A stretch of 64,000 nt of DNA. Origin: a virus. The stretch lies in the IMG/VR virus record IMGVR_UViG_3300025425_000010, positions 9,748 through 73,747 of that record; one strand, given 5' to 3'. The notes beneath the pieces are model-generated. The model saw only the letters and a list, made by a program, of their open reading frames with translations. It made no database searches and was not told where the DNA came from. Numbering within the stretch: position 1 is the first letter of the stretch; the number at the start of each line of letters is the position of its first letter. The position numbers and the translations under genes were made by a program. This document shows, in pieces, positions 2,987 through 56,254 of this stretch.

Positions 2987-3910
2987 TTATGTAATATACC
3001 AACCAACTTTGGCATCTTGATTTATTCTGAAATAGTCGGCTAGTAACGGAATCTCCTCACTATCAATTTTATCATTAAATTTCTCACAATCACTACTTAT
3101 TATAACAGCTTTACTCCCATCACCAAGTATAACCATCTTATCGAATGACCTATCACTAACCATGTAAGAGTATAATATCTTAACTATTTCCTTTCTAAGT
3201 TTGTGAAAGTCTAAATAGGCAAAATCAAATAGGTGTTCTACATCGTGTCTATTATCATCAAGAGCTCTTAAATAATCACCAATGAATAATTTTCGATCTT
3301 CCAATGAAAGTTTCATAAGTTCTTCTTGCCAGTGTTCTTGGTGTCGGGCCTTTTCTAACTCAACGGCTGGGATATTTACTTTATGTGCTATGTTTGGTTT
3401 GAGCCCATATTGTAAAACCAGTTTATTAGTTCGTCTTAGGAATTCGGTACCAGTTACTTTACCATTTATCCTGACCTCTTGGCCTTTTATCTCAACGTTT
3501 TCACCATCTATAAGTAAATCGCCTCGTGAGGCTTTATATATCAGTGGTGATATGAAGATGAACATTAACTCACCCTCACCAGAAGCTGAGTTAGGTGTTC
3601 CTAATCCAACACTCCTCAATCTCCAAAGTGATTTAGTAAAATCTATCCACTTGGGTGTTATGTAATCATCTATATTCCCGCCTTCTTTGAAAAATGATAT
3701 ATCGAAAACTTTATTGTTTTCTACATCAGATATGAAGTTTTTTATTTGAAATAGTGTATCTTCTGATACTTCGCCATAAAACCTTACTATGGATCCAATT
3801 AAGGAATCTATTATACTATCTTTCTTCTTTTCATGTGAAACTTCTTTTAATATCGACATATTGTAACAGTGTTCGAGAAGAGTATTTTCAAGTTCTTTTA
3901 CTATATTCAT
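2987..3910 (-). CDS. Putative PD-(D/E)xK nuclease-fold protein
   Basis: GEGE....RGDLLIDGENVEIKG motif. Confidence 0.5.
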   Translation of the reverse strand: MNIVKELENTLLEHCYNMSILKEVSHEKKKDSIIDSLIGSIVRFYGEVSEDTLFQIKNFISDVENNKVFDISFFKEGGNIDDYITPKWIDFTKSLWRLRSVGLGTPNSASGEGELMFIFISPLIYKASRGDLLIDGENVEIKGQEVRINGKVTGTEFLRRTNKLVLQYGLKPNIAHKVNIPAVELEKARHQEHWQEELMKLSLEDRKLFIGDYLRALDDNRHDVEHLFDFAYLDFHKLRKEIVKILYSYMVSDRSFDKMVILGDGSKAVIISSDCEKFNDKIDSEEIPLLADYFRINQDAKVGWYIT

Positions 3911-4310: not shown

Positions 4311-5214
4311 ATGTTGTATAATTACAAACAATTCATAAATGAGTCCAGACAAGATATAGATTCTATATGTCAGAAGTATGGTATAAAGAACTACACGATT
4401 AATGAGGATGGATCAATTGATGTTGACGGAGATGTTAATATACCTAATTGGGAATTGGTAGAATTACCCATCAAATTTGGAAATGTTAGTGGTGGTTTCA
4501 ATTGTTCTAATAATAAATTGGTTTTGTTAGAGGGTGCTCCATCTAGTGTTGATGGTGCTTTTTAGTTGTTATAATAATGAATTGACTTCGTTAGAGGGTT
4601 GTCCATCTAGTGTAGGTGGTGGTTTCTTTTGTTCTCGTAATAAATTGATTTTGTTAGAGGGAGCTCCATCTAGTGTTGATGGTGATTTCTATTGTTATAA
4701 TAATGAATTAACTTCGTTAGAGGGAGGACCATCAACTGTAGGTGGTGATTTCCATTGTTCTGATAATGAATTGACTTCGTTAGAGGGAGGACCATCAACT
4801 GTTGGTGGTAATTTCTATTGTTCTGGTAATAAATTAACTTCGTTAGAGGGAGCTCCATCTAGTGTTGATGGTCATTTCGGTTGTGCTTATAATAAATTGA
4901 CTTCGTTAGAGGGAGGACCATCAACTGTTGGTGGTGATTTCCTTTGTTCTGATAATAAATTAATCACATTAGAAGGATTCCCAACCTTGTTTAGACTAAC
5001 AACAAAAATTAATATTTCTCATAACCCAGTTAGAGAGGTGTATGAATTGTTCAGTGATTTGAAGGCAATTGAATATATGAACGAGACTGGTTGTATAAAT
5101 ACTGACACAATGGAGGTATATTACATTGCTCTATTGGATGTTTGGGAATACAGCGGTATGGAAATAGTAAAACCAGAGAATATTAAACTTAGACATTATA
5201 CATTGGTCTATTAA
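4311..5214 (+). pseudogene. LRR-like repeat protein, copy 1 (frameshifted at about 4559-4563)
   Basis: ORFs 4311-4565 and 4534-5214 join if one T is removed from the T5 run in GCTTTTTAG. Seven 21-aa repeats. N- and C-caps are homologous to copy 3. Confidence 0.75.
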
Positions 5215-6580
5215 TATATAGTGTATGTTATATAAGTATAGAGAATTCATAAATGAGTCCAGACAGGATATAGATTCTATTTGTCAGAAGTATAATATAA
5301 TAAACTATACAGTTAATGAGGATGGATCCATTGATGTTGATGGAAATGTTGATTTATCTAATCGGGAATTGATAGAATTACCGCTTAGATTTAGAAATGT
5401 TGGTGGTAATTTCGATTGTTCTGATAATAAATTGACTTCGTTGGAGGGAGCTCCAACATCTGTTGATGGTAATTTCTATTGTTCTGATAATGAATTGACT
5501 TCGTTGGAGGGAGCTCCATCTAGTGTTGATGGTGCTTTCGATTGTTCTGATAATGAATTGACTTCGTTAGAGGGAGGTCCATCTAGTGTTGGTGGTAATT
5601 TCAATTGTTATAATAATGGATTGACTTCGTTGGATGGTTGCCCATCTAGTGTTGATGGTGATTTCGATTGTTCTGGTAATAAATTGACTTCGTTGGAGGG
5701 AACATTGGTCTATTAATATATAGTGTATGTTATATAAGTATAGAGAATTCATAAATGAGTCCAGACAGGATATAGATTCTATTTGTCAGAAGTATAATAT
5801 AAAGAACTACATAATAAATGAAGATGGATCAATTGATGTTGACGGAGATGTTGATTTATCTAATCGGGAATTGATAGAATTACCGCTTAAATTTAGAAAT
5901 GTTAGTGGTTATTTCTATTGTCGAAATAATAAATTGACTTCGTTGGAGGGAGCTCCAACATCTGTTGATGGTAATTTCTATTGTTATAGGAATAAATTGA
6001 CTTCGTTGGAAGGAGCTCCATCTAGTGTTGGTGGTGATTTCAATTGTTCTGGTAATGGATTGACTTCGTTGGAGGGTTGTCCATCTAGTGTTGATGGTAA
6101 TTTCGATTGTTCTGATAATGAATTGACTTCGTTAGAGGGAGGTCCATCTAGTGTTGGTGGTAATTTCAATTGTTATAATAATGGATTGACTTCGTTGGAT
6201 GGTTGCCCATCTAGTGTTGGTGGTGATTTCAATTGTTCTGGTAATGGATTGACTTCGTTGGAGGGTTGTCCATCTAGTGTTAGTGGTGATTTTAGTTGTT
6301 TTTTCAATAAATTGACTTCGTTGGAGGGAGCTCCATCTACTGTTGATGGTAATTTCTATTGTTATAATAATGGATTGACTTCGTTGGAGGGAGCTCCATC
6401 TAGTGTTGGTGGTGATTTCTATTGTCGAAATAATGAATTGACTTCGTTGGAGGGAGCTCCATCTAGTGTTGATGGTAATTTCAATTGTTCTGATAATGAA
6501 TTGACTTCGTTAGAGGGAGGTCCATCTAGTGTTGGTGGTGATTTCTATTGTTCTGGTAATAAATTGACTTCGTTGGAGGG
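4500..6580 (+). repeat. 63-bp coding tandem repeats; exact 101-bp repeat (5200-5300 = 5702-5802) and exact 119-bp repeat (5536-5654 = 6101-6219)
   Basis: Direct sequence comparison. Confidence 0.9.
5225..5716 (+). CDS. LRR-like repeat protein, copy 2 (C-cap deleted)
   Basis: Four full 21-aa LTSLEGxPSSVxGxFxCxxN repeats, then jumps straight to the terminal TLVY. Confidence 0.75.
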   Translation: MLYKYREFINESRQDIDSICQKYNIINYTVNEDGSIDVDGNVDLSNRELIELPLRFRNVGGNFDCSDNKLTSLEGAPTSVDGNFYCSDNELTSLEGAPSSVDGAFDCSDNELTSLEGGPSSVGGNFNCYNNGLTSLDGCPSSVDGDFDCSGNKLTSLEGTLVY

Positions 6581-6818
6581 ATTCCCAACCTTATTTAGAC
6601 CAACAATGGTAATTGATATTTCTGATAGCCCAGTTAAGGAGGTGTATGATTTATTTAGTGATTTGAAGGCAATTGAATATATAAACGAGACTGGTTGTAT
6701 AAATAAAGATACGATGGAGGTATATTACATTGCTCTATTGGATGTTTGGGAATACAGCGGTATGGAAATAGTAAAACCAGAGAATATTAAACTAGAACAT
6801 TACACACTGGTTGTGTAG
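5727..6818 (+). CDS. LRR-like repeat protein, copy 3 (intact)
   Basis: MLYKYREFINES leader, ten full 21-aa repeats, C-cap. Confidence 0.85.
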   Translation: MLYKYREFINESRQDIDSICQKYNIKNYIINEDGSIDVDGDVDLSNRELIELPLKFRNVSGYFYCRNNKLTSLEGAPTSVDGNFYCYRNKLTSLEGAPSSVGGDFNCSGNGLTSLEGCPSSVDGNFDCSDNELTSLEGGPSSVGGNFNCYNNGLTSLDGCPSSVGGDFNCSGNGLTSLEGCPSSVSGDFSCFFNKLTSLEGAPSTVDGNFYCYNNGLTSLEGAPSSVGGDFYCRNNELTSLEGAPSSVDGNFNCSDNELTSLEGGPSSVGGDFYCSGNKLTSLEGFPTLFRPTMVIDISDSPVKEVYDLFSDLKAIEYINETGCINKDTMEVYYIALLDVWEYSGMEIVKPENIKLEHYTLVV

Positions 6819-34931: not shown

Positions 34932-35276
34932 TTATTTCTCGGTATTCAATACTTTACTTAGTTTTATTTGCCTTATTTCTTGTAGTGTGTATATTTTGGG
35001 TATTCTTTCATCTGATTGTGATTCTCTAGAAAGTTCATTATATATTTCCTCATTTTCACTACTGGCATTCATTTCGTCTATGTAATGAGAAAGGTTCCTG
35101 AAGTTCTTTTCAACAGCATAATTCCATTCTCCATCATATTTAGATATACAGATTACTAATAATGTTTTTATTTCTGTGTCGGTTAATTCTAACTTAATAT
35201 CCTTTATTTCTTCGATTGACCAGTTCTTATATAAGTGTAGGTAATTTTCAACTATATTCTCGTATTCAGTATTCAT
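34932..35276 (-). CDS. Hypothetical protein with C-terminal tag
   Basis: Ends RQIKLSKVLNTEK. Confidence 0.6.
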   Translation of the reverse strand: MNTEYENIVENYLHLYKNWSIEEIKDIKLELTDTEIKTLLVICISKYDGEWNYAVEKNFRNLSHYIDEMNASSENEEIYNELSRESQSDERIPKIYTLQEIRQIKLSKVLNTEK

Positions 35277-35570
35277 CTATTTTACTTTTTTTGTGTATCT
35301 AAATCGGAAATCATGCATGTATAATTTACTACCATCTATACCCTCACCAAAGAAGAAACTTCTTTCTGAGTTGAATTTAACAATTACGGAAGGTTCGTGT
35401 ACTCTTTTTTCGATTACCGTCAAATCTGTTGATATTTTGTGTTTATGAAAGAATTTAACATAATCACCATCAAACCAACAATGTGTCAGTATATCTCCAA
35501 CATTTATTTCTTCTCCATTAAAATCTTTCGGTTTAACTATACCATCACCGCCTTTAAAACGCATTTTCAT
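35277..35570 (-). CDS. YopX-like small protein
   Basis: KDFNGEEINVGDIL motif. Confidence 0.5.
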   Translation of the reverse strand: MKMRFKGGDGIVKPKDFNGEEINVGDILTHCWFDGDYVKFFHKHKISTDLTVIEKRVHEPSVIVKFNSERSFFFGEGIDGSKLYMHDFRFRYTKKVK

Positions 35571-54059: not shown

Positions 54060-54965
54060 ATGTACTTAGTTAAATATGATGAATTTTTATTAGAAACCTA
54101 TCAGAATGAATTTAATATGATAAATGAATCTAAAATTGACTTACGTAGTAAATTTATTAAGCTATTGAAATTATCTTTGTCTAAGAGTTATAAATATCGT
54201 AGGAAAATACTTGTGTATGGTGTTGCCTCTCTCATTGCTGTTTCCGGTGTTTCCGTTGTATCGTCTTTATTTGCTAATGATAGTGATGTTAAGAGATTGG
54301 CCGATGATGCAGGTGTAACCGAAGTTATAGGTCAGGAAATCGAGAAGATGGAAAAGATACCGGTTATAAATACAGGACCAATCGAAACGGATTCAATTGA
54401 AATGCCTAAGGTTAAGAAAAAAGTTATTAGTGGTGATAGATCATGGGTAATGAGTAAATCTCCGAGTAATATGAGACTTTCACAGAAGGGATGGGACTAT
54501 ATCCGCCACGAAGAAGGTTCTACTAAAAGAAAGGGACAACCAGTTTTGAAAGCTTATAGTATAGGTGATGGTATGATAACTGTTGGTTGGGGTCATGCTG
54601 AAAAGGTTGAGAAATCAAAATTCGAGGTCGGTGATGTTATTACAATGGATCAAGCACAAGATTTCTTGAAGAAAGACCTTACTGTTGCTGCCGATGGAGT
54701 TAGGCGTATATTGAAGAGATGGGAGGATGAGTATATTGATGTGTATCTATCACAGGATCAATTTGATGTACTTGTATCATTAGCTTATAATTCTGGTGTG
54801 GGTGCGTTAAATCGTAGTTCGGTTATGAGGCAAGTTAAAAGAGGAAATATCGAGAAAGCTGGTAAGAAATTGAAATCTTGGAGAGTTAATAAGAAATTTC
54901 CTGGATTACAGACTAGGAGAAATTTAGAATATAAACAGTTTATGTCATATCAGACATTTTCTTAA
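54060..54965 (+). CDS. GH24 lysozyme with N-terminal leader and hydrophobic segment
   Basis: HEEG..AY..GDG..TVGWGH, QFDVLVSLAYNSG, GLQTRR; leader MYLVKYDEFLLE...MINES. Confidence 0.88.
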   Translation: MYLVKYDEFLLETYQNEFNMINESKIDLRSKFIKLLKLSLSKSYKYRRKILVYGVASLIAVSGVSVVSSLFANDSDVKRLADDAGVTEVIGQEIEKMEKIPVINTGPIETDSIEMPKVKKKVISGDRSWVMSKSPSNMRLSQKGWDYIRHEEGSTKRKGQPVLKAYSIGDGMITVGWGHAEKVEKSKFEVGDVITMDQAQDFLKKDLTVAADGVRRILKRWEDEYIDVYLSQDQFDVLVSLAYNSGVGALNRSSVMRQVKRGNIEKAGKKLKSWRVNKKFPGLQTRRNLEYKQFMSYQTFS

Positions 54966-55694: not shown

Positions 55695-55725
55695 TTTGTT
55701 TATTGAATAAACTTTACTATCTTTG
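55695..55725 (+). promoter_or_regulatory. Bacteroidota-type promoter (TTTG-N19-TATCTTTG) upstream of the tRNA-like gene
   Basis: Consensus match. Confidence 0.75.
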
Positions 55726-55743
55726 AAGTGTATAATGAAATAA

Positions 55744-55826
55744 GCTCCTTGATGATTTGAAGTGGAAGTGGTGAAGCGTCTGGGTCCTAACCCAGTTATC
55801 ACGAGGTTCGAACCCTCCTGGGAGCA
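55744..55826 (+). tRNA. Atypical tRNA-like gene; anticodon loop TCCTAA (contains CTA); no encoded CCA
   Basis: Acceptor GCTCCT/GGGAGC, anticodon stem CTGGG/CCCAG, T-arm GAGG-TTCGAAC-CCTC. The D region is enlarged and the loop is 6 nt. Confidence 0.65.
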
Positions 55827-55873
55827 CAGTAAGAATGAAAGTTAATATATAAACCAGTAAAAAACAATACATT

Positions 55874-56254
55874 ATGAAAAACACATAGATTGATTCCAAA
55901 TTTAAAGAAACAAAACTAGTCACGATTACCCGTACTGACTTTGAAAACTTCGGATACACTGTTCCACAGACAGGCCATTCCTTGGCTGACTTTGCTTATG
56001 AATTCCCTGAGGAGTTTAGGCACTGGAAAGAAACATCCAACTCTATTATATGCTTGGGTTGTAAGTCTGAACCAGAACTACTAAAACTTTACGAGAAATT
56101 ATCACAACTGACGAATACGGTCAAATTCTACGAACCTGACGTTGATGAGTGGACATCTATTTGCCTTATGGGTACTACCGAAGTACGTAAGAAACTGTCA
56201 CATCTTCCTTTATTAAAACCAAAAAACTTCAAGAGATATGAAAGAATTGATTGA
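55874..56254 (+). CDS. Peptidyl-tRNA hydrolase 2-like protein with in-frame TAG at codon 5
   Basis: MKNT*IDSKFKETKLVTITRTD...QTGHS...W..SNSIICL..FYEPD..TSIC..LPLL. The conserved N-terminal strand and Q..H lie upstream of the ORF-track TTG start. Confidence 0.7.

What the first reader, a model, noticed from the sequence alone, without database searches (positions are those of the whole stretch)
55695..56254. PTH2-like gene gated by an amber codon, directly downstream of a CUA-containing tRNA-like gene
Seen: ATG AAA AAC ACA TAG (55874-55888) follows an AATATATA motif and an A-rich leader, and is in frame with a complete PTH2-like fold. The conserved KLVTITRTD and Q..H elements lie before the first TTG/ATG, so full-length protein needs TAG readthrough or a rare ATT start. 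About 50 bp upstream is an atypical tRNA whose anticodon loop is TCCTAA. Established: very short minigenes cause peptidyl-tRNA drop-off, which Pth recycles, and prfB uses an early stop for feedback. Inference: a stop-codon sensor in which the hydrolase is made only when amber termination is weak or a suppressor is active. Caveat: the 6-nt loop lacks a canonical U33-CUA arrangement, so the RNA may not decode.
Basis: partly seen in the sequence, partly recalled or inferred. Interest (0 to 1): 0.8.

Follow-up and report, generated by a model that had tools for sequence, protein, structure and literature searches.

The report
Amber-gated phage Pth2-like gene, odd tRNA
A salt-lake phage keeps the stop codon UAG as codon 5 of a small tRNA-hydrolase-like gene, right behind an oddly shaped tRNA-like gene carrying the UAG-reading triplet CUA. 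About 75 diverged phages keep the same stop, so the enzyme is probably made only when that stop is overridden.

Summary
ATG AAA AAC ACA TAG (55874-55888) lies in frame with a PTH2-fold ORF (55889-56254). A tRNA-like gene with CUA in its anticodon arm sits at 55744-55826.

The TAG is not an error or a pseudogene mark:
- 74 of 76 distinct homologous phage loci have ATG, then 0-8 further codons, then TAG at this spot. It is never TAA, TGA or a sense codon.
- About 40 loci carry a tRNA(CUA) gene within 2 kb, nearly always upstream on the same strand.
- The ORF behind the TAG is under purifying selection (dN/dS about 0.1).
- Contigs from four other runs give the same sequence.

The contig otherwise uses the standard code. 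Restart at the ATT is disfavoured, because 20 of 73 homologues have GTA, GTT, AAC or ACA there.

Best reading: an amber-suppression-gated hydrolase paired with a suppressor tRNA.

Particular to this window: the tRNA is a divergent 8/4 cloverleaf. Its anticodon arm closes to a 6-nt or even 4-nt loop and it has no D stem. Whether this copy decodes UAG is doubtful, and the contig is only about 45% of the genome.

The scan has found the same module before on other DNA. I found no paper describing it. Decoding, the inserted residue and the enzyme's substrate are all untested.

The parts
55718..55725 (+). TATCTTTG, a Bacteroidota-type -7 promoter box (TAnnTTTG) 18 nt ahead of the tRNA-like gene
   Evidence: Read directly. 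The same TAnnTTTG box stands at about the same distance before the homologous tRNA(CUA) genes of L005, L009, L026, L036, L091 and L095. The consensus itself is from my own knowledge.
55744..55826 (+). Non-canonical tRNA-like gene. It has an 8-position acceptor stem with one U-U mismatch, a 4-bp T stem with loop TTCGAAC, and discriminator A. It has no D stem and no encoded CCA.
   Evidence: CM R1 hit of 34.9 bits, E 2e-6, the only hit in the window. The 8/4 cloverleaf is supported in relatives: 94.8% of cells paired and 15 of 22 pairs with compensatory changes. There are five compensatory pair changes between the window and L005 (sequences). Missed by ARAGORN and by Rfam's tRNA model.
55780..55795 (+). 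Anticodon arm CTGGG-TCCTAA-CCCAG, with CUA at 55787-55789. The loop is 6 nt, or 8 nt (GUCCUAAC) if the G-C pair opens. C stands at the usual U33 position.
   Evidence: The MFE fold closes it further, to a CCUA tetraloop. The relatives L009, L012, L015, L026 and L036 have canonical 7-nt [C/U]UCUAAA loops, and L005 has the 8-nt AUUCUAAC.
55842..55854 (+). TTAATATATAAAC motif between the tRNA-like gene and the ATG, probably a phage promoter or leader element
   Evidence: Conserved 15-30 nt before the ATG in L005, L009, L026, L036, L043 and L044. AATATATA(G/A) also stands before other genes of the window.
55874..55885 (+). Mini-ORF ATG AAA AAC ACA (Met-Lys-Asn-Thr)
   Evidence: Homologues have 1-9 sense codons here, most often 2.
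55886..55888 (+). In-frame TAG (the 'amber gate'), followed by A
   Evidence: TAG in 73 of 74 anchored distinct loci, plus L003. Only L078 and L080 have a plain ATG start. The base after the TAG is A in 57 loci and G in 16, never a pyrimidine. Contigs from four other runs are identical here.
55889..56254 (+). PTH2-fold ORF of 121 codons plus TGA. The full gated ORF is 55874-56254.
   Evidence: Pfam PTH2 E 3.3e-4; phrog_1866 E 1.6e-9; PDB Pth2 profile hits; Foldseek top hits 2zv3, 3erj, 1q7s, 1wn2 and 1xty; dN/dS 0.10 against L005 and 0.155 against L009.

Best explanation
The ORF 55874-56254 encodes a small PTH2-fold, peptidyl-tRNA-hydrolase-like phage protein. Its synthesis is gated by a UAG at codon 5. 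Ribosomes start at the ATG. Under normal termination they release only Met-Lys-Asn-Thr. The full protein of about 126 residues is made only if the UAG is decoded as a sense codon, in the zero frame. The most likely decoder is a phage-encoded tRNA with anticodon CUA.

In this family the gene and a tRNA(CUA) gene travel together as a two-part module. In the window the partner is the promoter-equipped, non-canonical 8/4 tRNA-like gene whose end lies 59 nt before the TAG.

Shown here:
- Family-wide retention of TAG, and only TAG.
- Synteny with tRNA(CUA) genes.
- Purifying selection on the ORF behind the TAG.
- The PTH2 fold.
- Standard code in the rest of the contig.

Inferred:
- That suppression is the mechanism (about 0.6).
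- That the window's own odd tRNA is the decoder (about 0.35). Otherwise the decoder would be a second tRNA(CUA) in the roughly 55% of the genome not in hand.
- The inserted residue, which is unknown.
- The purpose. My best guess is that the module ties the supply of a tRNA-recycling or deacylating enzyme to the moment and level at which the phage's suppressor tRNA is active.
For: (1) TAG conservation. 96 homologous loci from IMG/VR, JGI metagenomes, GenBank phages and one MAG contig were examined; 74 are distinct and could be anchored. 73 of them have ATG, 0-8 further codons, then TAG just before the conserved core. L003 (phage pT24) has it too. TAA and TGA never occur there, although TAA ends 61% of ORFs in this contig.

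(2) The codon after the TAG is GTA, GTT, AAC or ACA in 20 of 73 loci, so it cannot generally be a start codon. The base after the TAG is always a purine.

(3) No ATG, GTG or TTG lies between the TAG and the conserved core in the window, or in most loci.

(4) tRNA(CUA) genes lie within 2 kb in about 40 of 76 distinct loci, nearly always upstream on the same strand. 22 are canonical by ARAGORN and 18 are of the 8/4 type by CM.

(5) Of four long GenBank records that lack an adjacent tRNA(CUA), three have one elsewhere: LR745206, LR756502 and pT24.

(6) The two loci without the gate (L078, L080) have no tRNA(CUA) in their flanks.

(7) dN/dS is 0.10 between the window and L005, the two phages with the odd tRNA, so the ORF is being translated.

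(8) The contig is not recoded: 91% coding density under the standard code, TAG ends 13 of 115 ORFs, and no other gene needs TAG read-through.

(9) The tRNA-like gene keeps its helices through five compensatory pair changes against L005, and it keeps a promoter box.

(10) The sequence is reproduced in contigs from four other runs.
Against: - Nothing is experimental. There is no evidence here for the RNA, its charging, or a peptide.
- The window's tRNA-like gene lacks a 7-nt loop, U33 and a D stem. It scores 35 bits where its relatives score 73-93, and its MFE fold buries CUA in a tetraloop.
- About half of the loci have no tRNA(CUA) within the fetched flanks. I found none at all in LR756504.
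- A working amber suppressor would also read through the 13 TAG-terminated phage ORFs and the host's TAG stops. I saw no enrichment of back-up stops behind TAG.
- In mycobacteriophage Alice the codon after the TAG is GTG, which is the annotated start, so a restart is possible in some lineages.
- The 'Q' that database proteins show at this site is a translation of TAG itself. It is not evidence for glutamine.
Confidence: 0.6

Rival explanations
1. The gate is real, but the tRNA-like gene at 55744-55826 is not the decoder. It would be a degenerate or repurposed tRNA-like element, for example an RNase P/Z processing signal that sets the 5' end of the hydrolase mRNA, a decoy, or a regulatory RNA. 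The UAG would then be read by another tRNA(CUA) encoded in the unsequenced part of the phage genome. This rival concerns only the tRNA part and is compatible with amber gating.
For: - The loop is 6 nt (or 4 nt), C replaces U33, there is no D stem, a GAAGTG tandem duplication sits in the D region, and there is one acceptor mismatch.
- The CM score is 35 bits against 73-93 for relatives with canonical loops.
- CheckV puts the contig at 45% complete.
- Some phages carry two tRNA(CUA) genes (L021, L024).
- In LR745206 and LR756502 the tRNA(CUA) lies far from the gene.
Against: - The helices are kept by compensatory changes between the window and L005, and the CUAAC loop segment and the promoter are retained. 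That speaks for a functional RNA with CUA exposed at least some of the time.
- L005 has an open 8-nt loop, and from my own knowledge a yeast mitochondrial tRNA-Thr with an 8-nt loop decodes triplets.
- No second tRNA(CUA) was found in the 74-kb or 132-kb contigs.
Confidence: 0.4
2. Termination followed by restart. The mini-ORF is translated and terminated at the TAG, and the ribosome restarts at the adjacent ATT (55889). The protein then begins with the residue after the stop, and the TAG acts only as a coupling device.
For: - ATT, ATA or ATC follow the TAG in 53 of 73 loci. AUU is a known weak start (infC, from my own knowledge).
- Mycobacteriophage Alice has ATG TAG GTG with the GTG annotated as the start. 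L248 has GTG TAG ATG.
- The window's tRNA looks unfit to decode.
Against: - 20 of 73 loci have GTA, GTT, AAC or ACA after the TAG.
- A restart would work with any stop codon. Yet TAA and TGA never occur at the site, although TAA is the commonest stop and is one transition away from TAG.
- A restart does not explain the linkage to tRNA(CUA) genes.
Confidence: 0.12
3. Read-through that needs no dedicated tRNA and senses RF1. UAG is read only by RF1. If the phage or the infection lowers RF1 activity, near-cognate host tRNAs read the UAG, so the gene reports RF1 status rather than suppressor tRNA.
For: - Exclusive use of TAG fits an RF1-specific mechanism as well as a tRNA(CUA) one.
- About half of the loci have no tRNA(CUA) in their flanks, and none was found in LR756504.
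- The base after the TAG is always a purine, which from my own knowledge is a leaky context.
Against: - Strong synteny with tRNA(CUA) genes, and their presence elsewhere in three of four long genomes.
- No release-factor-like gene is in the contig, but the contig is incomplete.
Confidence: 0.12
4. The phage uses a TAG-reassigned code throughout ('code 15'), and this TAG is just one of many sense TAGs.
For: Recoded phages with tRNA(CUA) are well known (bioRxiv 10.1101/2021.08.26.457843). A gene caller translated this site as Q in some database entries.
Against: - 91% coding density under the standard code, and TAG ends 13 of 115 ORFs.
- No other ORF in 73.7 kb is split by a TAG, apart from one ambiguous TAG-ATG junction.
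- Random recoding would not place the TAG at one fixed site in 74 of 76 homologues.
Confidence: 0.02
5. A pseudogene or a sequencing error.
For: An in-frame stop at codon 5, and no canonical start for another 31 codons.
Against: Identical in contigs from four other runs. TAG is conserved across loci down to about 35% protein identity. dN/dS is about 0.1.
Confidence: 0.01

Closest known systems
Stop-codon-recoded phages with phage-encoded suppressor tRNAs (TAG read as Gln, 'code 15': Lak, crAss-like and others; Borges/Peters et al., bioRxiv 10.1101/2021.08.26.457843)
   Same: A phage tRNA(CUA) together with in-frame TAG in phage genes. The same idea that reading a stop as sense times gene expression in a standard-code host.
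   Different: Here the genome keeps the standard code and uses TAG as a real stop. A single small gene carries one TAG, at a fixed N-terminal site conserved across very distant phages. The client is a tRNA-hydrolase-like gene, not lysis or structural genes.
Orphan suppressor tRNAs of standard-code jumbo phages (Xanthomonas phage XacN1, PMC5852040) and PTH2 genes of jumbo phages (Iyer et al. 2021, PMC7824862)
   Same: Large phages with tRNA(CUA) genes and a PTH2-type hydrolase. The XacN1 authors could not find a client gene for the suppressor. PTH2 is listed as a jumbo-phage translation-rescue gene.
   Different: Neither paper links the two or reports an N-terminal TAG. I did not examine XacN1's own hydrolase; it was not hit by my searches.
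prfB (RF2) autoregulation through an early in-frame UGA
   Same: An early in-frame stop in a translation-factor gene makes its synthesis depend on how well that stop is read.
   Different: prfB needs a +1 frameshift, and its product acts on its own stop. Here the frame is unchanged. Nothing shows that the product acts on UAG decoding.
Lambda bar minigenes and Pth (from my own knowledge)
   Same: A 2-5 codon ORF ending in a stop, placed next to the theme of peptidyl-tRNA hydrolysis.
   Different: bar minigenes are free-standing and toxic when Pth is limiting. Here the mini-ORF is in frame with a hydrolase-like body. Drop-off is untested.
8/4 tRNAs (allo-tRNAs, and phage 8/4 tRNA-His and tRNA-Ser; Mukai et al. 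2017, PMC5389517)
   Same: An acceptor branch of 12 bp split 8+4 instead of 7+5. These are found in phages and some are nonsense suppressors, and they work in bacterial translation.
   Different: No long variable arm. An 8-nt linker with a conserved TTAA motif and a 5-6-bp D stem in relatives. The window's copy also lacks the D stem and a 7-nt anticodon loop.
Rfam RF02956, DUF2693 RNA
   Same: The weak full-length match has a tRNA-like 3' half preceded by a Bacteroidota-type promoter.
   Different: 21.6 bits against a gathering score of 81.3, so it is not a member.

Membership tests
PTH2 peptidyl-tRNA hydrolase (Pfam PF01981) | The PTH2 alpha/beta fold | tested here: met
   AlphaFold model with pLDDT 76.7. 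All Foldseek PDB hits with probability 0.99 or more are Pth2 chains (2zv3, 3erj, 1q7s, 1rlk, 1wn2, 1xty), with TM 0.53-0.66.
PTH2 peptidyl-tRNA hydrolase (Pfam PF01981) | Sequence score above Pfam's curated cut-off | tested here: inconclusive
   The window protein scores 21.3 bits against a cut-off of 23, or 20.8 in the six-frame search. Many relatives carry PF01981 in precomputed tables. A family profile hits PDB Pth2 at E 1.7e-5, but only over the N-terminal two thirds.
PTH2 peptidyl-tRNA hydrolase (Pfam PF01981) | Conserved Pth2 motifs: R.DL...GK..AQ..HA | tested here: inconclusive
   The R.D and Q..H parts are kept; Q27 and H30 are invariant in the family. The Lys of 'GK' aligns with Tyr in the family, and with Gln, Met or Asp in some relatives. 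That this Lys matters for catalysis is from memory and was not checked.
PTH2 peptidyl-tRNA hydrolase (Pfam PF01981) | Hydrolysis of peptidyl-tRNA | not testable with these tools
   Needs an enzyme assay or complementation of a pth(ts) strain.
Canonical elongator tRNA | Acceptor and T arms stacking to 12 bp, with a T loop of the GTTCRA type | tested here: met
   8 acceptor positions (7 paired) plus a 4-bp T stem, with T loop TTCGAAC. The 8/4 split is supported by covariation in relatives.
Canonical elongator tRNA | A 7-nt anticodon loop with U33 and a purine at position 37 | tested here: not met
   The loop is UCCUAA (6 nt) with C at position 33. Alternatives are an 8-nt GUCCUAAC loop or a CCUA tetraloop.
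Canonical elongator tRNA | A D arm | tested here: not met
   No complementary D stem exists in the 28-nt purine-rich D region. The CM alignment marks non-pairs there.
Canonical elongator tRNA | Recognised by tRNA finders | tested here: not met
   ARAGORN finds 0 genes. There is no Rfam tRNA hit.
Canonical elongator tRNA | Processed, CCA-tailed, aminoacylated, and decodes UAG | not testable with these tools
   CCA is not encoded; the 3' end reads A-CAG. No RNA run was listed.
8/4 allo-tRNA (Mukai et al. 2017) | 8-bp acceptor stem, 4-bp T stem and a long variable arm | tested here: not met
   The 8/4 split is met, but the variable region is only 6-7 nt. It is therefore an 8/4 tRNA of another kind.
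TAG-recoded ('code 15') phage | Many genes with in-frame TAG, and TAG not used as a terminator | tested here: not met
   13 of 115 ORFs end in TAG, coding density is 91% under the standard code, and only this gene needs read-through.
prfB-type autoregulation | Programmed frameshift at an early stop, with the product acting on that stop | tested here: not met
   The homology continues in the zero frame and the +1 frame closes after 9 codons. Feedback by the product cannot be tested here.
Rfam RF02956, DUF2693 RNA | Score at or above the gathering threshold | tested here: not met
   21.6 bits against 81.3, E 0.2.

The most novel reading that the evidence does not exclude
The module is a self-contained feedback circuit. 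A phage tRNA(CUA), here in a shape with a non-7-nt anticodon loop that still reads UAG in the triplet frame, licenses synthesis of a PTH2-like enzyme. That enzyme's substrate is the suppressor's own aminoacyl- or peptidyl-tRNA, or the peptidyl-tRNAs that read-through and the mini-ORF generate. Stop-codon read-through during infection is thereby held at a set level in a host that keeps the standard code.
Probability: 0.15. Interest if true: 0.85.

Novelty: new variant of a known kind. Interest (0 to 1): 0.72.

Why it matters
Suppressor tRNAs in phages that otherwise use the standard code have had no known client gene; the authors of the Xanthomonas phage XacN1 paper say so explicitly. A single gene family that keeps a UAG at one fixed N-terminal site, next to tRNA(CUA) genes, would supply that client. 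The phages that keep it include Bacteroidota-type phages, huge uncultured phages and cluster C mycobacteriophages.

It would also be a natural, minimal 'amber switch'. It could be an intermediate on the road to full stop-codon reassignment, or a timer or quality check that ties a tRNA-recycling enzyme to the phage's own tRNA expression.

The window adds a structural point. Its partner RNA is an 8/4 tRNA with a 6- or 8-nt anticodon loop. If that RNA decodes UAG, it widens what a working suppressor can look like. If it does not, it shows the tRNA half of the module being repurposed while the gate is kept.

Cultured carriers exist: Tenacibaculum phage pT24, and Bixzunavirus mycobacteriophages on M. 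smegmatis mc2 155. The question is therefore directly testable.

Tried and rejected
- ARAGORN, with default settings and bacterial code, on the window and the contig: no tRNA. A relaxed intron mode gave only noise.
- Rfam at E up to 10: no tRNA, only a weak DUF2693 RNA hit.
- blastn of the region against GenBank phages: no match.
The DNA of the closest protein relatives (P0001-P0005, 73-79% identity) could not be fetched. I could not see whether they share the odd anticodon loop.
- 'Q' at the TAG position in database proteins: rejected as evidence for glutamine. P0007 equals L088 translated with its TAG read as Q.
- Isotype of the tRNA(CUA) genes by similarity to 170 other phage tRNAs: best matches scatter over Asn, Glu, Arg, Met, Ile, Leu and Cys at 0.67-0.79 identity, so no assignment is possible.
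- Back-up stops behind TAG-terminated ORFs of the contig: no enrichment with n = 13.
- RF-1 family in the contig: none, but the contig is about 45% complete.
- Second tRNA(CUA) in the window's contig or in L005's contig: none found.
- tRNA(CUA) in LR756504: none found by CM or by a pattern scan.
- Pattern scan CTAACCC..GGTTCGA over IMG/VR, looking for more odd-loop relatives: unspecific. Only 1 of 118 loci lay near a PTH2-like gene.
- Single-sequence MFE folds of the tRNAs: not decisive, because even well-supported relatives misfold.
- Quadruplet reading of UAGA by an 8-nt loop (UCUA in L005): rejected as a productive route, because the +1 frame closes after 9 codons.
- Sequencing runs: no RNA holder was listed.
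- Pfam and PHROG searches on neighbouring ORFs and on the TAG-ATG ORF pair: no families, except a lysozyme at 54060-54965.
- Pth2 catalytic residues: I found no open paper stating them.
Full report
**1. What is in the sequence**

The window is AT-rich phage DNA (32% GC). It makes up most of a 73.7-kb IMG/VR record that CheckV rates 45% complete. Salt-lake metagenomes hold the same stretch.

On the + strand, reading:
- TATCTTTG at 55718-55725, a Bacteroidota-type TAnnTTTG box.
- A tRNA-like gene at 55744-55826.
- TTAATATATAAAC at 55842-55854, followed by an A-rich leader.
- ATG AAA AAC ACA TAG ATT at 55874-55891.
- An open frame that runs on to TGA at 56252-56254.

The first ATG, GTG or TTG after the TAG is TTG at 55982, 31 codons in. 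It lies behind the conserved KLVTITR and Q..H segments.

**2. The protein**
- The 121 residues after the TAG match Pfam PTH2 weakly: E 3.3e-4 and 21.3 bits, against a cut-off of 23.
- They match phrog_1866.
- A profile of 26 family members hits solved Pth2 structures at E 1.7e-5.
- An AlphaFold model (pLDDT 76.7) finds only Pth2 chains as confident structural neighbours.

So the fold is PTH2. Activity is open. The Lys of the Pth2 'GK' motif aligns with Tyr, and the C-terminal third does not align at the sequence level. I call it PTH2-like.

**3. The TAG is a conserved feature of the family**

I collected homologous DNA from four sources:
- GenBank phages.
- IMG/VR.
- JGI metagenomes.
- A species-representative genome set. 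Its single hit is a 2.5-kb MAG contig that looks viral.

Of 96 loci, 74 are distinct and could be anchored. In 73 of them an ATG is followed by 0-8 codons and then TAG, in frame, directly before the conserved core. L003 (Tenacibaculum phage pT24) has the same arrangement. Only L078 and L080 start with a plain ATG.

The stop is never TAA or TGA, although TAA ends 70 of 115 ORFs in this contig. It is never a sense codon either. Protein identity among these loci falls to about 35%. Between the window and its nearest relatives synonymous sites are near saturation, while dN/dS is 0.10-0.155.

A neutral or broken codon would not survive this much divergence, and a silent ORF would not stay under purifying selection. 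Contigs from four other runs are identical over the tRNA-like gene and the TAG, which rules out an assembly error.

**4. Suppression or restart**

The codon after the TAG, counted over 73 distinct loci:

| Codon | Loci |
|---|---|
| ATT | 48 |
| GTA | 12 |
| ATA | 4 |
| GTT | 4 |
| AAC | 2 |
| ACA | 2 |
| ATC | 1 |

Twenty of these cannot serve as starts. Only five loci have an ATG before the core. A restart model also gives no reason for using TAG exclusively.

Database proteins show 'Q' at this position. P0007, however, equals L088 translated with its TAG read as Q. That Q comes from the gene caller and is not evidence for glutamine.

The base after the TAG is always a purine: A in 57 loci and G in 16. 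Genuine TAG terminators in this contig are followed by T in 7 of 13 cases. From my own knowledge a following purine favours amber suppression. The next amino acid is also constrained, so this is only suggestive.

**5. The tRNA partner across the family**

ARAGORN finds canonical tRNA(CUA) genes within the fetched flanks of 22 distinct loci. They are nearly always upstream on the same strand, and several lie within 100 nt.

A second class is missed by ARAGORN. It has an 8-bp acceptor stem, a 4-bp T stem, an 8-nt linker with a conserved TTAA, a 5-6-bp D stem and a [C/U]UCUAAA loop. On seven sequences this structure has 94.8% of cells paired and compensatory changes in 15 of 22 pairs. No shuffle and no slid register comes close.

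A covariance model built from these sequences finds further members. Together with the canonical class, about 40 of 76 distinct loci have a tRNA(CUA) nearby.

Four long GenBank records have no adjacent tRNA(CUA). Three of them have one elsewhere:
- LR745206 and LR756502 carry the 8/4 type.
- pT24 carries a canonical one 2.6 kb upstream.
- In LR756504 I found none.

8/4 tRNAs are known, including in phages and as suppressors (PMC5389517). This kind differs in having no long variable arm.

**6. The window's own tRNA-like gene**

The model hits 55744-55829 at 34.9 bits, E 2e-6. It is the only hit in the window and in the contig.

The acceptor stem (7 of 8 positions paired) and the T arm are good. 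The rest is aberrant:
- There is no D stem. The D region is purine-rich and contains a GAAGTG tandem duplication.
- The anticodon arm is CTGGG-TCCTAA-CCCAG, a 6-nt loop with C in place of U33.
- That loop can open to the 8-nt GUCCUAAC, or close to a CCUA tetraloop in the MFE fold.

The closest relative, L005 (77% protein identity), has the 8-nt loop AUUCUAAC and a similarly expanded D region, and scores 35.6 bits. L009 (74% identity) has a regular loop.

Between the window and L005, five pairs changed on both sides while staying paired: three in the acceptor stem, one in the T stem and one in the anticodon stem (sequences). The promoter box is also kept. The RNA is therefore under selection for its structure.

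Whether it decodes UAG I cannot tell. I put that at about 0.35. The alternative is a second tRNA(CUA) in the missing half of the genome, with this copy kept for another role such as mRNA 5' processing.

In L005 the four loop bases UCUA would pair with UAGA. A four-base reading, however, runs into a stop after 9 codons, so that route cannot make the enzyme.

**7. Not a recoded genome**

Under the standard code the contig is 91% coding. TAG ends 13 ORFs, for example 5727-6818, which abuts a convergent gene. No other ORF is interrupted by TAG. The one exception is an ambiguous junction at 35277-35279 on the minus strand, where a 97-aa ORF ends in TAG and an ATG follows in frame.

**8. Literature and earlier notes of this scan**

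Published work I found:
- PTH2 genes in jumbo phages are described (PMC7824862).
- Orphan tRNA(CUA) genes in the standard-code phage XacN1 are described. Their authors found no client gene when they read through ORF-terminal ambers (PMC5852040).
- Recoding as a regulator of late genes has been proposed (bioRxiv 10.1101/2021.08.26.457843).

Four full-text searches turned up no paper that links a conserved N-terminal TAG in PTH2 to the suppressor tRNA.

The scan's own notebook holds many earlier reports of the same module on other genomes. I reached the same reading independently and re-tested it here. What I added here:
- The argument against restart, based on the codon after the TAG and on the identity of the stop codon.
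- The 8/4 covariance model.
- The check on the database 'Q'.
- The anatomy of this window's odd tRNA.

The module also occurs in cluster C mycobacteriophages. In phage Alice the order is ATG TAG GTG, then gp150 'peptidyl-tRNA hydrolase', then tRNA-suppressor(cta) 250 nt downstream. That gives a tractable laboratory system. It is also a case where restart at GTG remains possible.

**9. Verdict**

The gene is an amber-gated PTH2-like gene paired with a tRNA(CUA)-type gene. Nothing about decoding, the inserted residue, the enzyme's substrate or the purpose has been shown.

I rate it a new variant of a known kind, namely phage stop-codon read-through with phage-encoded suppressor tRNAs. Interest is 0.72.

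Noticed in passing
L001 about 1335-1470; L002 about 1363-1480; also L018, L022, L024, L030 and L084-L092: A second TAG-bearing leader lies about 130 nt upstream of the gated gene. It reads ATG ATG TAG ATT/ATC and often runs on to Pro-Pro-stop. Behind it come a long hairpin (CCTCC[T/C]TAA ... TTAAGGAGG or TTGGGG) and a T run, which looks like a transcription attenuator that would sense UAG read-through. The window has no such leader.
   Followed up: partly
L006/L096 about 1199-1264; L008 about 1197-1262; L042; L075: A third shape of CUA-bearing tRNA-like gene, about 66 nt with no D arm, a 7-bp acceptor stem, a 5-bp T stem and a [C/T]TCTAAA loop. It lies about 230 nt upstream of the gated gene with a roughly 60-aa ORF between. 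ARAGORN and my CM both miss it.
   Followed up: partly
window 34932-35570 (- strand): A 97-aa ORF ends in TAG (35277-35279) and the next 114-aa ORF starts with an ATG directly behind it in the same frame. This could be a second read-through client or just two adjacent genes. Neither ORF has a Pfam or PHROG match.
   Followed up: partly
window, e.g. just before the ORF starts at 4311, 5727, 50014 and 54060, and at 55842-55854: AATATATA(G/A) recurs 2-30 nt before start codons. It is probably a phage promoter or leader motif.
   Followed up: no
L107 (Mycobacterium phage Alice, NC_028986.1) 2465-2473 and 3095-3167: gp150 'peptidyl-tRNA hydrolase' is preceded by ATG TAG, with the annotated GTG start directly after the TAG. 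A tRNA-suppressor(cta) lies 250 nt downstream. 206 mycobacteriophage records match this protein.
   Followed up: partly
L003 (Tenacibaculum phage pT24) 1457-2409: The annotated CDS BPT24_235 starts 90 nt inside the region of homology. The real frame begins ATG AAA TAG ATA. The PTH2-like domain is the N-terminal part of a longer protein.
   Followed up: partly
L021 1097-1261; L024 1328-1481: Two tRNA(CUA) genes in tandem. In L021 one is canonical and one is of the 8/4 type.
   Followed up: no
L025 about 1830-1940: A tRNA-like sequence with a large internal insertion lies directly upstream of the gated gene. It may be an intron-bearing tRNA.
   Followed up: no
L106 (Stenotrophomonas phage RAS14) 2024-2809: A distant PTH2-like domain (34% identity) forms the C-terminal part of a 261-aa annotated protein, apparently without the TAG gate.
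   Followed up: no
window 55762-55773: The D region of the tRNA-like gene holds a GAAGTG GAAGTG tandem duplication.
   Followed up: no
window 54060-54965: A phage lysozyme gene (PF00959, E 1.8e-24) lies about 0.8 kb upstream of the module on the same strand.
   Followed up: no
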